A program made the translations under genes and the position numbers. Of a DNA stretch of 56,207 nt, positions 41,312 to 47,507 are shown in pieces (positions within the stretch are counted from its first letter, which is position 1; each line of letters opens with the position of its first letter). Source of the DNA: an uncultured virus (IMG/VR IMGVR_UViG_3300044701_002219) (lineage: Duplodnaviria; Heunggongvirae; Uroviricota; Caudoviricetes); the IMG/VR virus record IMGVR_UViG_3300044701_002219. One strand, 5' to 3'. The notes under the pieces were generated by a model. The model saw nothing but the letters and a program-made list of their open reading frames with translations. It searched no databases and was not told where the DNA came from.

Positions 41312-41716
41312 ATGTTACAAGCAAGCTACCTCCGCGACTACCCAAGCAAAAAGAAAATTGGTGAAACTGTCTTCGTTTATGCCGTTACCGGCACACCCGA
41401 AGAACTTTCACAATTTAAAACAGCCCAAGGCACCCACTACCGGGTCGATGAACACACGGGCACCCCACTGTATTTTGACACGATTTATGCGGGCGACGTA
41501 GTCACCCTTAAAATCTCGTCAAATAACAAGACCTTCATCGACCTCAGTGAAATTCGAAAGGCTGTCGCACTTTCGAAAATCACCGGTGGCAACTTCGGGC
41601 AGGCATTAGCTTCGACCCTTGCGAGTACCCTCGCACCTCAGCTAACTGCCCGTCCTACGTCAGCACCGTCTTCCGCACCGAAGACCGAAGAAGATAGCAC
41701 CGACGCACCGTTCTAA
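41312..41716 (+). CDS. Hypothetical protein with SSB-like acidic C-terminal tail, paralog of 42556-42945
   Basis: Ends KTEEDSTDAPF. Shares TVFVY.V.G..L..FK.AQG..YRVDE.TG.PL.F and SNNK..D.SE..GGN.G..LA. Confidence 0.65.
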   Translation: MLQASYLRDYPSKKKIGETVFVYAVTGTPEELSQFKTAQGTHYRVDEHTGTPLYFDTIYAGDVVTLKISSNNKTFIDLSEIRKAVALSKITGGNFGQALASTLASTLAPQLTARPTSAPSSAPKTEEDSTDAPF

Positions 41717-42555: not shown

Positions 42556-42945
42556 ATGAAAGCAACACTATTACGCAACTACAAGTCGCAAGCAGGTAAC
42601 ACAGTATTCGTATACTCAGTAGACGGAGATGTACAGCAATTAGAGAACTTCAAAAGTGCTCAAGGTTCTAACTATAGAGTCGATGAGAAAACAGGCGCAC
42701 CTCTTTGGTTTACAACACGTTGCATCGGAGACGAAGGAACTCTGATTATCACAAGTAACAACAAAGTTGTGCCAGATATGTCTGAATATGATAAGATGGC
42801 AAGCTTAGCATCTCAGTATGGCGGTAACTTAGGCGAGCAATTAGCCCGTGCAGCAGCTGAGGCATTGCTATCTAAGACAAAAGCAGTAGCAACTAAGGTA
42901 GAAACACCTGTTGCAGCAGCTACTAAAGACCTTGGAACTTTATAG
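42556..42945 (+). CDS. Hypothetical protein, paralog of 41312-41716
   Basis: 129 aa, end-to-end motif sharing. Confidence 0.7.
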   Translation: MKATLLRNYKSQAGNTVFVYSVDGDVQQLENFKSAQGSNYRVDEKTGAPLWFTTRCIGDEGTLIITSNNKVVPDMSEYDKMASLASQYGGNLGEQLARAAAEALLSKTKAVATKVETPVAAATKDLGTL

Positions 42946-43064
42946 TTCGGGGTTTAAGTAGTTGAAAGTTAGAGAGTTAGGAAGGCTATAATCCTTCCTA
43001 CTCTTTTCTAACTATCTAAAAATCAGTCAAAAACTCCCTAAATAAAAAAACAAAACAGCAATAT

Positions 43065-43307
43065 ATGTCTAATACTCTTAAGACTCTTTACACAATAGGT
43101 CTCTACCTATTAGTTACTCTGTCTCTTGTCTTCTTATATTCTTGTAATGGGCATAAGGAGATATCTGTCAACGCCTGCCCGGTATGGGCTGATAATATAC
43201 ATAACCCGGATAACCAAGAGTTTGTAGAAGAGGTAGCTTTTAATCTGGATATCCCTCCGGCTCAGGTTACCCAACAAATGTTTGATGAGAGATATGGTTC
43301 TCATTAG
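43065..43307 (+). CDS. Putative lipoprotein
   Basis: Signal peptide ending VFLYS-C (lipobox-like). Confidence 0.5.
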   Translation: MSNTLKTLYTIGLYLLVTLSLVFLYSCNGHKEISVNACPVWADNIHNPDNQEFVEEVAFNLDIPPAQVTQQMFDERYGSH

Positions 43308-43420
43308 ACTCCTATAGGTTTGCACCTTAATAGCTTGTATAGGTTTTAAGTAAGAAAAGTTTAGGGAGAGTAGTCTCTATTTATAGTATACGGCCACGGA
43401 TAAGATCACTCGCCGACTAA

Positions 43421-43570
43421 CTTTGGGAATGCACCACAACTCCATTCCCAAGGTGGAGCAGTTGTAATTCAGAGTATAAGCACTGATAAGTACTTCCTAG
43501 AATACCTCTTATAGATATTCTATGTAGAGGAAAGCAGCAAGGGTATTACAACTGAGTGCAGAGGGGTTAT
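43421..43570 (+). ncRNA. Twister-like ribozyme candidate (variant)
   Basis: G|AA-TGCA-CC..CTCCA[TTCCCAAGG]TGGAG-CAGTTGTAAT..ATTACAACTG-AG-TGCA-GA-GGG. P2, P4, P5 and both pseudoknots (CCC/GGG, CC/GG) map onto twister topology. P1 is weak, L4 is 1 nt long and T2 is CC/GG rather than GC/GC. Confidence 0.45.
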
Positions 43571-43700
43571 AGGCAATTGTAATAAACTAACCTCTACAAA
43601 ACCTTACATAGATAAGGAATAGATACCTGTATAGGCAACCAACAGCCGTTGAGGGGTGATAATAATATTACAGGGATATGTTACAACTGAGTGCAGAGGG
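43546..43700 (+). repeat. 20-bp direct repeat TTACAACTGAGTGCAGAGGG (43546-43565, 43681-43700)
   Basis: Exact copies 135 nt apart, each preceded by a complementary CA(G/A)TTGTAAT. Confidence 0.85.
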
Positions 43701-43732
43701 ACACAATACTAACCACTCAAAAATTTTAAACT

Positions 43733-43858
43733 ATGATTATCAAAGACCACCCAATCAACAAGCCAGAAAGAGATGGATTCGTTATGAATTTTGTAGAAGA
43801 AGCTATACGTGAGTATGAGTTTGACTACTACGACGACGACTTTAACGGAATATTTTAA
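43733..43858 (+). CDS. Small acidic protein, 41 aa (MIIKDHPINK..EYEFDYYDDDFNGIF)
   Basis: Read by hand. Typical A-rich start context (TTTTAAACTATG). Confidence 0.55.
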   Translation: MIIKDHPINKPERDGFVMNFVEEAIREYEFDYYDDDFNGIF

Positions 43859-43868
43859 TCTATCTAAT

Positions 43869-44051
43869 ATGAAACAGATCGATGATAAGGTACAAGAGTT
43901 GATAGACTCTATAGTTAGAGCAGCTAAGGCTATACACGAAAAGCCTAATGCCGAAGCTTATATTAGAAGAAAGATTGCTGACATCTATTACGCAGGTAAA
44001 GAAGTTGGCAAGATGAGTTTAACTGATGAGATCTTTAACGGGTCTCATTAG
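43869..44051 (+). CDS. Hypothetical protein, 60 aa
   Basis: Start placed at ATG 43869 (MKQIDDKV..). The GTG extension overlaps the 41-aa gene. Confidence 0.6.
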   Translation: MKQIDDKVQELIDSIVRAAKAIHEKPNAEAYIRRKIADIYYAGKEVGKMSLTDEIFNGSH

Positions 44052-44058
44052 TTTTTTA

Positions 44059-44119
44059 AGTGTACTGATGAGTCCTGATGGGACGAAACACAAAGATTTA
44101 TTATCTTTGTGTCTGCACT
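44059..44119 (+). ncRNA. Hammerhead ribozyme (type I)
   Basis: Stem I AGTGTA/TGCACT, core CTGATGA (44065-71), stem II GTCC/GGAC, GAAA (44085-88), stem III CACAAAGAT/ATCTTTGTG, GTC cleavage triplet ending at 44113. Confidence 0.92.
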
Positions 44120-44222
44120 GTATGAAGTTTGTGAGTACACGCCATTCGTGCGAACTCACCGGCAGATAGAGCCGTGTCTAACTGAATAACAGTAAGTTAG
44201 GCAGAATCTATAAGATTTTTAA

Positions 44223-44274
44223 GGGATGCTAACAGCACTTATTAACTTTTGGTATAAAGTAAAAATGGCATCCC
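44223..44274 (+). ncRNA. Structured element 1 (GGGATGC-TAACAGCA..GCATCCC)
   Basis: 7-bp closing stem, CAGCA bulge, inner hairpin. Same architecture as 44281-44386. Confidence 0.5.
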
Positions 44275-44280
44275 GCAAAC

Positions 44281-44386
44281 CGAGTTAAAGGATACATCAG
44301 CAACTTATAAATTATAAACATAAGTTAAACCGGGGAAATCTACTTCACAAGTAACTTGTGGTAGGTAAAGTATCCTGTAACGCTCG
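44281..44386 (+). ncRNA. Structured element 2 (AGGATAC-ATCAGCA..GTATCCT)
   Basis: Closing stem with a compensatory change relative to element 1, CAGCA, two inner hairpins, outer CGAG/CTCG pairing. Confidence 0.5.
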
Positions 44387-44463
44387 ACACCTTACCACCT
44401 GTAAAAGGGTGGTGGGTTTCCCCAAATTTTATCACTCAGTAAAAACCAAAAAACCAATCAACT

Positions 44464-44733
44464 ATGAATCCAACTTTGTTTGTGGTTAGTCTCTTCCCAG
44501 AAAAAAGAGACCTTCCTTGTGTATTAGGTATTACGGAAGAAAGATCTGAGGCTCTATCTAAAAAGGTAGTAGAGCTAATGGCATCAGAAGAGTTTCCTAA
44601 AATCACTGATAAGATGTCCGAGCTATCTAAGATATGCTTGCACGCCAATGAGTTAGCATTTTGTTGCTACGCTCTCGGGCACTCAGCAGCTCACGGAGAA
44701 TTTATGCACCGTATGTTTGGAAGGGGTATGTAA
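44464..44733 (+). CDS. Hypothetical protein
   Basis: 89 aa, LGITEER..L..HANELAF, good start context. Confidence 0.65.
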   Translation: MNPTLFVVSLFPEKRDLPCVLGITEERSEALSKKVVELMASEEFPKITDKMSELSKICLHANELAFCCYALGHSAAHGEFMHRMFGRGM

Positions 44734-46124: not shown

Positions 46125-47507
46125 ATGTCAAATCTTATTAATGCTACAAGAACTGAGAACTCTTTTACCTTTAACGGTGCGGTTACTAATTCTACCTCGC
46201 TCGATTATTGTCTCGATATGTTCTTCTTAGCAGGAGCTTCGAGAAAAATGACGCAAGGAGATATCCTTACAGTATTCTGTAAGGCTCTGTATGAAGATAC
46301 AGCGCTCGCTCTAAAAATATTATTTTGGGCAAGAGATGTAAGGGGTGGTGCCGGAGAAAGAAGATTCTTCAGGTACTGTATGGAGTATCTAAGTAAGATG
46401 CACCCTGATATCTTTGACCAATTGGTAATATTTGTACCTGAGTATGGTTATTGGAAAGATGTTTTCGCTATCGATAAGCCTAACAACGACTCGCTCGATT
46501 GGATAATGCGTGGCTTAACCGAGAGAAACGATGGTCTATTAGCTAAGTGGTTCCCAAGGAAAGGTCCTTGGTTCACAGCTATGCACAAGTTTATGAAGAT
46601 AACTCCTAAGGAGTTACGTAAGTTGCTTGTGAGTATGACCAACGTAGTGGAAACACCTATGTGTGCCAATAAATGGTCGGAGATAAACTATAGTCACGTT
46701 CCTTCTGTAGCTATGAATCGTTATCGTAACGCATTCTTTAAGCGAGATGGAGAACGTATGGCTAAGTTTATAACTGACGTTCATAACGGGAGTGCTAAGA
46801 TTAATGCCTCTGCTTTATATCCTCACGAGCTTTATGTAGCTATGATGAATGAGGATAACGAGTCAGCAATCGAAGCACAGTGGAATGCCCTACCTGATTA
46901 TATGGCCGGCAGCACAGAAAGGATTCTTCCTGTATGTGATGTGTCGGGCAGTATGCAAGGTACGCCTATGAATGTAAGCGTCGGTTTGGGATTATATATC
47001 TCAGAACGTAACCGCGGTATATTCAAGGACGCCTTTATAACTTTTTCAGAATCTCCTGAGATGCAGTATCTACACGGTACTTTGTCACAGAGAATGAAGC
47101 AGTTACAAAGTGCGGATTGGGGTATGAACACTAACCTTAACGCAGTCTTTGACCTTGTCTTAACAAGTGCTGTTAGAGAGAAACTTCCTGAGTCCGAGAT
47201 GCCTACTAAACTACTTATCATATCTGATATGGAGTTTGATGAGGCAGACAGAGGACGCACAAACTTTCATATGATACGTAAGAAGTATGCCCACTACGGG
47301 TATGCCGTACCACAAATCGTATTTTGGAATGTGAATGGTAGGATGGGTAACTCTCCGGCGCAAGTACAAGACAAAGGTGTAGGACTAGTGTCAGGTTTCA
47401 GCCCGGCTATCCTTAAGTCAATCTTGAAAGGTGAGATATACTCACCTAAACAGTTGATGTTGGATACGGTTATGACCGATAGGTACAAGCGGATACGAAT
47501 TGACTAA
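46125..47507 (+). CDS. TROVE-like plus vWA domain protein (Ro60-like / DUF2828-type)
   Basis: TENS..NGA..S..CLD.FF, ALKILFWARDVRGGAGERR.F, EYGYWKD, LAKWFPR, INYSHVPS.AM, MIDAS CDVSGSM, WGMNTN, IISDMEFD, PQIVFWN, LVSGFSP. Confidence 0.85.
   Translation: MSNLINATRTENSFTFNGAVTNSTSLDYCLDMFFLAGASRKMTQGDILTVFCKALYEDTALALKILFWARDVRGGAGERRFFRYCMEYLSKMHPDIFDQLVIFVPEYGYWKDVFAIDKPNNDSLDWIMRGLTERNDGLLAKWFPRKGPWFTAMHKFMKITPKELRKLLVSMTNVVETPMCANKWSEINYSHVPSVAMNRYRNAFFKRDGERMAKFITDVHNGSAKINASALYPHELYVAMMNEDNESAIEAQWNALPDYMAGSTERILPVCDVSGSMQGTPMNVSVGLGLYISERNRGIFKDAFITFSESPEMQYLHGTLSQRMKQLQSADWGMNTNLNAVFDLVLTSAVREKLPESEMPTKLLIISDMEFDEADRGRTNFHMIRKKYAHYGYAVPQIVFWNVNGRMGNSPAQVQDKGVGLVSGFSPAILKSILKGEIYSPKQLMLDTVMTDRYKRIRID

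What the first reader, a model, noticed from the sequence alone, without database searches (positions are those of the whole stretch)
43421..43705. Twister variant with one 5' half, two alternative 3' halves and a built-in inhibitory hairpin
The twister-like 5' half occurs once (43427-43468), but the 3' half TTACAACTGAGTGCAGAGGG occurs twice, each closing a different structured insert in P5. An 11-bp hairpin (CTTTGGGAATG/CATTCCCAAGG, 43421-31 with 43443-53) would sequester both the cleavage site and the CCC pseudoknot strand. The pseudoknot normally formed by GC/GC is a compensatory CC/GG here. This suggests a switchable or delayed ribozyme, or a non-catalytic RNA derived from one.
Basis: partly seen in the sequence, partly recalled or inferred. 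Interest (0 to 1): 0.75.

Follow-up and report, generated by a model that had tools for sequence, protein, structure and literature searches.

The report
Self-blocked phage twister ribozyme variant
A lake phage carries a copy of a widespread, uncatalogued variant of the self-cutting twister RNA, but this copy looks jammed by a five-base insertion found nowhere else and is followed by the headless remains of a second copy, so it is more likely a damaged duplicate than a designed switch.

Summary
The sequence features are real: one 5' half, an exact 20-mer twice, and an 11-12-bp hairpin. The window is a crAss-like freshwater phage. The element belongs to a large phage family with the twister-P1 fold (P1, P2, P4, P5 and T1 all covary) that Rfam misses; the scan found this family before on other DNA.

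Three readings change. (1) The second pseudoknot is not a compensatory CC/GG. The first C pairs in a 5-bp P2 (C-G ↔ U-A), the loop-end G closes L4, and only one T2 pair remains. A canonical twister does not tolerate loss of that G. (2) The second 3' half has its own P5 strand. It is a tandem unit that lost its 5' half, as other family copies have. (3) The hairpin occurs in none of 134 other copies. It fits a 5-nt insertion at the cleavage site that exactly complements L4, as a template-switch mutation would.

Best reading: a largely silenced copy of a probably self-cleaving twister variant, not an evolved switch. Cleavage is untested. The family's rewired T2 is the interesting part.

The parts
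43418..43421 (+). Displaced P1 5' strand (UAAC), complementary to 43566-43569; 43422 is the likely original U before the cleavage site
   Evidence: 4-bp P1 only at offset 5 among offsets 0-10; coordinates; role inferred
43423..43427 (+). Likely 5-nt insertion, exact reverse complement of 43447-43451; 5' arm of the inhibitory hairpin
   Evidence: no comparable helix in 134 other copies; absent in the 4 distinct P4-sharing relatives; insertion itself inferred
43420..43454 (+). Inhibitory hairpin, 12 bp (9 perfect DNA pairs 43423-31/43443-51), covering the cleavage-site AA, part of P4 and the CCC of T1
   Evidence: -14.6 kcal/mol against -7.4 for P4
43428..43429 (+). L1 AA; predicted cleavage 5' of A43428 (general-acid A by analogy with twister)
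   Evidence: position in alignment A1; cleavage not tested
43430..43434 (+). P2 5' strand (5 bp, with 43556-43560)
   Evidence: covariation
43435..43435 (+). C of the single remaining T2 pair (with G43452)
   Evidence: C-G in 134 of 135, U-G in 1; no covariation, so the pair is inferred by analogy; 0 of 42 non-C hits are family members
43440..43458 (+). P4 (5 bp plus a closing U-G) with 7-nt loop holding the CCC of T1
   Evidence: 27 different paired P4 versions; closing pair U-G, C-G or U-A across family types
43459..43554 (+). P5 of unit 1 (9 bp) enclosing insert 1 (43468-43545, 78 nt)
43555..43569 (+). 3' half of unit 1: junction A, P2 3' strand, GAGGG (general-base G and T1 strand), P1 3' strand
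43570..43700 (+). Unit 2, 5'-truncated tandem copy: P4-like remnant 43570-73, own P5 strand 43574-82, insert 2 (43583-43680, 98 nt), 3' half 43681-43700
   Evidence: a related contig carries 43573-43755 in another gene order behind 166 other letters

Best explanation
The family is a twister-P1 variant of freshwater crAss-like phages. It has no P3, a long P5 with a swappable insert, a 5-bp P2 and a one-pair T2 (shown by covariation). It most likely self-cleaves to cut early-region transcripts (inferred). This locus is a tandem of two units. Unit 2 lost its 5' half at the junction 43569/43570 (inferred). Unit 1 gained a 5-nt insertion at the cleavage site, copied from the complement of its own L4, most simply by polymerase template switching at a 4-bp seed that this P4 version offers (inferred). 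The resulting hairpin folds before P4 is complete and hides the cleavage site and T1 (computed). So this copy probably cuts slowly or not at all and remains as a stable structured spacer, not a regulated switch.
For: Fold: 95.8% of cells paired, 20 of 28 pairs with double changes, 0 of 500 shuffles, slid controls 30-54%. P1 of 3 bp or more in 77 of 135 against 23.0 +/- 3.7 in shuffles; the parser did not require P1. Hairpin private: longest such helix 12 bp here, 7 bp or less in 134 others; 0 of 11 G(-1) pattern hits and 0 of 121 hairpin-arm hits are family members; the 4 relatives with the same P4 keep U-AA. Inserted 5-mer is the exact complement of L4, and P1 is displaced by exactly 5 nt. 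Cost of the cleavage-competent fold is 9.0 kcal/mol against a family median of 3.4 and 1.3-1.7 for P4-sharing relatives; it falls to 1.3 when folding starts at 43427. Full tandems (L451, L489, L495) and units without an intact 5' half (15 clear cases among 26 rows) recur. A relative has unit 2 in another place. Other self-cleavers share the setting: hammerhead at 44060-44118, hatchet above gathering in 4 of 38 family loci.
Against: No cleavage data and no RNA data. The un-inserted ancestor of this exact locus was not found. A 4-bp P1 at a given wrong offset arises in about 3% of copies. The stretch is identical in two samples, so it is not obviously being purged. ViennaRNA ignores pseudoknots and Mg2+; in 43400-43575 the P2/P4 fold reaches 0.25. 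2 of 134 other copies have an equal or higher folding cost. Family activity is itself in doubt: in Osa-1-4, loss of G13 or extension of P2 nearly abolishes cleavage.
Confidence: 0.62

Rival explanations
1. Evolved switch or delayed ribozyme. The hairpin holds the ribozyme off until a protein, antisense RNA or upstream cut removes the 5' arm; the 5' half then chooses between two 3' halves, giving short or long products.
For: The hairpin is strong and exact. Without the 5' arm the twister fold returns, pairing with the second 3' half at 0.94 in 43429-43720 and with the first at 0.89 in 43429-43575. Natural twisters with upstream P0 hairpins cleave less, 0.40 against 0.85 (PMC11662667 section 33).
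Against: No conservation: 0 of 134 other copies; among the 18 other copies with low P4 probability, none pairs its CCC upstream. The two 3' halves are identical, so the core would be the same. The second half has its own P5 partner and no P1. No trigger is evident.
Confidence: 0.12
2. Promoter replacement. 43418-43425 matches the Bacteroidota -7 box TAnnTTTG (-12 to -5), putting a start near 43429-43430. The RNA would begin where cleavage would have put its 5' end, without the inhibitory arm; the hairpin would be a by-product.
For: Motif at 43418; box position from PMC9723704 passages. A transcript from 43427-43429 folds into the family structure.
Against: The motif is at chance level in the window, 63 against 59.4 +/- 7.1. 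Only 1 of 132 other copies has it within 25 nt upstream. No TTTG is visible at the -33 spacing (spacing recalled). The insertion would create TTTG automatically.
Confidence: 0.1
3. The whole family is a non-cleaving, twister-derived scaffold that closes and protects variable cargo RNAs or marks recombination joints. The hairpin then destroys nothing essential.
For: The family lacks the G13-C31 pair that Osa-1-4 needs (G13C 0.03, G13U 0.03, G13C/A40G 0.03, A40C 0.09). P5 is unusually conserved in sequence. Inserts are shared between different cores (14 of 23 sharing pairs). Copies without catalytic loops persist.
Against: The cleavage-site AA, U at -1 (131 of 135), the GA of GAGGG and T1 are kept, and P1 covaries, which a passive clamp would not need (AA and GA were required by the parser but are also invariant in alignment A1). 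The missing T2 pair is replaced by two new covarying pairs.
Confidence: 0.16

Closest known systems
Type-P1 twister ribozyme (Rfam RF03160; Oryza sativa Osa-1-4; review PMC5408937, parts 1-2 read)
   Same: Order of P1, L1, P2, P4, optional P5; double-pseudoknot core with CCC/GGG T1; AA at the cleavage site and GAGGG; P1 dispensable; any base tolerated at -1 (PMC11662667 section 32).
   Different: P2 has 5 bp, not 4. The first T2 pair (G13-C31) is absent and L4 is a 7-nt loop closed by U-G, C-G or U-A. No P3. P5 is long, conserved in sequence and carries 18-153-nt inserts. Best Rfam score 18.8 bits against gathering 67.2. This copy adds a self-complementary insertion and a headless second unit.
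Schistosoma T-variant twisters (PMC8501958; abstract and section 17 read)
   Same: Natural twisters with altered L1/P1 around the cleavage site.
   Different: The listed T-variants keep GC and the GUCCCAAGC loop and vary the number of As; they sit in retrotransposons, not phages.
Quasipalindrome template-switch mutation (PMC7202029; abstract and introduction read)
   Same: An imperfect inverted repeat is made more perfect by copying one arm from the other; first described in yeast CYC1 and phage T4 rIIB, as cited there.
   Different: Here it is inferred from one sequence and its family; the ancestral allele was not seen.

Membership tests
Twister ribozyme, type P1 | Stems P1, P2 and P4 in P1-type order | tested here: met
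   Family: covariation in all three. This copy: P2 and P4 intact; P1 only 5 nt out of register.
Twister ribozyme, type P1 | Pseudoknot T1 (L4 CCC with L1 GGG) | tested here: met
   CCC/GGG 110, CAC/GUG 25 of 135; 11 double changes in 42. In this copy it is predicted to be hidden by the hairpin.
Twister ribozyme, type P1 | Two-pair pseudoknot T2 (GC with GC) | tested here: not met
   Position 13 covaries with the 3' P2 strand, not the loop; the loop-end base covaries with the base before the loop. One C-G pair remains, without covariation.
Twister ribozyme, type P1 | Conserved catalytic A (+1), A (+2) and general-base G of GAGGG; conserved L4 U and AAG | tested here: met
   Invariant in alignment A1 of 42; present in the window.
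Twister ribozyme, type P1 | Score at or above Rfam gathering for RF03160, RF03154 or RF02684 | tested here: not met
   No twister hit in the window or in 38 family loci; 18.8 bits against 67.2 for the shortest-insert copy.
Twister ribozyme, type P1 | Site-specific self-cleavage at N^A | not testable with these tools
   Needs a bench assay.
Regulated (switch) ribozyme | Alternative pairing conserved, with compensatory changes, across homologues | tested here: not met
   0 of 134 other copies; 0 of 4 distinct P4-sharing relatives.
Regulated (switch) ribozyme | A trigger that shifts the two folds | not testable with these tools
   No candidate found; needs probing and kinetics.

The most novel reading that the evidence does not exclude
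This copy is a functional gate on a rewired twister scaffold. The hairpin keeps read-through transcripts uncut, while transcripts that start or are trimmed near 43428 (possibly from the overlapping Bacteroidota-type -7 box) fold the twister core and can close either a 78-nt or a roughly 213-nt cargo. That would be a natural ribozyme whose activity and product length depend on where transcription starts.
Probability: 0.12. Interest if true: 0.75.

Novelty: new variant of a known kind. Interest (0 to 1): 0.45.

Why it matters
If intact family copies cleave, the twister active site can be built with only one T2 pair, an arrangement that mutagenesis of the model twister says should be nearly dead. 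That would widen the twister consensus and explain why Rfam misses a family present in well over a hundred phage contigs. It is testable with a one-day transcription assay. This particular copy matters less: it shows how such units decay and shuffle (tandem gain, 5' loss, self-templated insertion) and offers a natural on/off pair for folding studies.

Tried and rejected
Own genome: not held; the nearest record G001 has no match to this region. ORF 43065-43307 as an anchor for the ancestral allele: 2 loci, neither with the element. T2 covariation at the remaining C: 42 hits, none family. Annotated phages (INPHARED): only 7 chance-level matches. Sequencing runs: no RNA holder listed; gaps in cover in runs X5 and X6 prove nothing. 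Minus-strand fold z -1.6 against plus -2.4; the motif order fits the plus strand. CRISPR-like repeat or attC reading: rejected by inspection (two copies only, inverted arms, ribozyme core). Insert structure: weak (median z -0.96, 23 of 121 below -2). Upstream hairpin before the cleavage site: modest in the family (35 of 122 below z -2 against 19 and 11 in controls), absent here (z 0.36). Two pair sets (unit-2 P5 and the cross pairing) were indexed one base off and are not used. The classifier mis-assigned 11 of 26 'D' rows and did not list the window's unit 2. The parser missed short junctions and was replaced. Literature: ten searches showed no listing that describes this family. Six readable supplement files of PMC10690425 lack the motifs, three were not searched; the supplement of PMC11662667 could not be read. 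Either could hold members.

Full report
Setting. The window is a crAss-like phage: Crassvirus major capsid, tail ring, portal and terminase matches on the minus arm, and small plus-strand genes with PcfJ and DUF2828 matches near the finding. The finding lies in a gap between ORF 43065-43307 and a short ORF near 43735. All 12 runs listed for the region are DNA, the best holders freshwater metagenomes. Rfam finds only a tRNA at gathering level in the window and no twister at E up to 10 in 42900-44500.

Observation. The 20-mer repeats exactly at 43546 and 43681, with 0 matches in 100 shuffles. The hairpin 43420-31/43443-54 is predicted at 0.98-0.99 in two long spans. Contigs from two samples cover 42900-44400 with no difference, so an assembly slip is unlikely, though they may be the window's source.

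A family. The 20-mer alone hits at least 121 stretches of IMG/VR; the scan stopped at its limit. Further scans were aimed at variants and one at metagenomes. A parser recovered 135 distinct compact copies, the window included. Frequencies are biased by my patterns, and the parser required P4, four P2 pairs, most of P5 and two T1 pairs. It did not require P1, the fifth P2 pair or the loop-closing pair. T1 is CCC/GGG in 110 and CAC/GUG in 25. P4 occurs in 27 paired versions. P1 has 3 bp or more in 77 of 135, against 23.0 +/- 3.7 (maximum 34) in 1000 partner shuffles. Inserts are 18-153 nt. On an alignment of 42 short-insert copies, 95.8% of cells pair and 20 of 28 pairs show double changes; 0 of 500 shuffles reach this, and slid controls give 30-54%. 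These counts are not corrected for relatedness. Rfam gives no twister hit in 38 family loci and 18.8 bits against 67.2 for the copy with the shortest P5. Earlier scan notes describe the same family in other genomes; I reached the family reading before seeing them.

T2 is not CC/GG. Using Osa-1-4 numbers, position 13 pairs with 40. It is C-G in 75, U-A in 58 and U-G in 2 of 135. Two directed tests agree. Copies selected for non-C at 13 have A at 40 in 29 of the 30 with a 3' half found (34 rows kept of 121 matches). Copies selected for A at 40 have U at 13 in 50 of 50 parsable unique cases (68 matches: 12 duplicates, 4 without L4, 2 unparsed). The loop-end base pairs instead with the base before the loop: U-G 121, U-A 1 and U-U 1 in compact copies, C-G 26 and U-A 2 in copies with extra stems inside L4. 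One C-G pair is left for T2; it is nearly invariant, so it is inferred, not shown. This matters because in Osa-1-4 any change at G13 gives relative activity below 0.2 and A40C, which would extend P2, gives 0.09 (PMC5113685, whole text read). From its supplementary matrix, as I read the columns and cross-checked on mirrored cells: G13C 0.03, G13U 0.03, G13C/C31G 0.06, G13C/A40G 0.03, G13A/C31U 0.89. So the family is either a rewired active site or a non-cleaving derivative. I favour activity (about 75%, judgement): the catalytic A and G, U at -1 in 131 of 135 and a covarying P1 are kept, and other self-cleavers sit in the same regions (hammerhead at 44060-44118; hatchet above gathering in 4 of 38 loci).

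The second 3' half. It has its own P5 strand at 43574-43582 and closes its own 98-nt insert when folded alone. The four bases before it resemble the end of a P4 strand seen in other copies. Complete head-to-tail tandems exist (L451, L489, L495), and so do units without an intact 5' half: 15 clear cases by eye among the 26 'D' rows, beside 118 complete, 27 expanded, 4 altered and 12 unresolved. In run X5, one contig carries 43573-43755 (5 differences) behind ORF 43867-44059 and 166 other letters, so unit 2 moves as its own module; I could not read those letters. That follows from any tandem of identical arms.

The hairpin. It is private. The longest helix between the upstream 16 nt and the P4/L4 region is 12 bp here and 7 bp or less in the other 134. 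G at -1 occurs only here among 135. A complete scan for G at -1 with family spacing gave 11 hits, none in the family. Four distinct relatives share this P4; all have U before AA and no hairpin. Of the 18 other copies with low P4 probability, none pairs its CCC upstream. The sequence suggests how it arose. 43423-43427 is the exact reverse complement of 43447-43451. It sits between a U and the AA. Four bases before that U pair with the four after the first GAGGG, a P1 displaced by exactly 5 nt. This P4 version already gives a 4-bp seed for such a hairpin. That is the pattern of quasipalindrome template switching (PMC7202029, abstract and introduction). The ancestral allele was not found, and a 4-bp P1 at a given wrong offset occurs in about 3% of copies, so this step is inference.

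Effect. The hairpin is -14.6 kcal/mol against -7.4 for P4, and holds at 0.87-1.0 at all 10 transcript lengths tried. The cleavage-competent secondary structure costs 9.0 kcal/mol here, against a family median of 3.4 (2 of 134 as high) and 1.3-1.7 for three P4-sharing relatives; it costs 1.3 if folding starts at 43427. Against a full block: tertiary contacts are not modelled, and the P2/P4 fold reaches 0.25 in 43400-43575, though there U-rich bases pair with the GGG strand. G at -1 and loss of P1 would not by themselves stop a twister (fraction cleaved 0.68 for G; PMC11662667 section 32).

Rivals. An evolved switch (0.12) lacks conservation and a trigger. A promoter reading (0.10) rests on a TAnnTTTG box at 43418-43425 that would start transcription near 43429-43430 (PMC9723704 passages); the motif is at chance frequency in the window and rare before other copies. 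A non-cleaving scaffold family (0.16) is kept alive by the mutagenesis data.

Novelty and verdict. Ten paper searches showed no listing of this family; PMC10085705 (passages on twister) reports no new twister permutations; two supplements could not be fully seen, and subscription papers are outside the library. It works like a type-P1 twister but fails two membership tests (two-pair T2, Rfam score), so I call it a new variant of a known kind. Interest 0.45, carried by the family's T2 architecture.

Noticed in passing
window 44060-44118 (+): Type-I hammerhead with intact core and three stems, predicted cut after C44113, directly behind a terminator-like hairpin (44021-44053). Below Rfam gathering. 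In L070 a family element without an intact 5' half lies directly upstream of the same hammerhead.
   Followed up: partly
window 44114-44445 (+): About 330 nt of ORF-free, strongly folding RNA (z -4.5) just behind the hammerhead cut; 90% identical in L070; no credible Rfam match.
   Followed up: partly
L008, L013, L027, L033, L036, L060, L088, L100 and others (27 rows): Expanded family type with two conserved extra hairpins, each with its own variable insert, inside L4.
   Followed up: partly
L007, L011, L050, L061, L101, L111, L115: Derived copies in which a CC- or CCC-bearing strand just before P2 could pair directly with GAGGG, turning the core into a plain stem.
   Followed up: partly
L072:1629-2021 (-): GOLLD-like RNA (85 bits, gathering 150) ends immediately upstream of a family copy.
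   Followed up: no
L003, L011, L045, L078, L450 upstream of the element: A recurring short motif (CCTAAGCA ... AAACTGCTT) just upstream of several copies; may be the end of another unannotated RNA.
   Followed up: no
L070:900-1405 (+): An ORF ends directly at a copy whose 5' end is altered; by eye it resembles a homing-endonuclease gene (recalled, not tested).
   Followed up: no
window 46125-47507 (+): DUF2828/DUF7788 protein (PHROG 850, RNA-binding); homologues lie next to family copies in L039, L070, L418 and L423.
   Followed up: no
window 41312-41716 and 42556-42945 (+): Two small ORFs that look like paralogues by eye; no family match.
   Followed up: no
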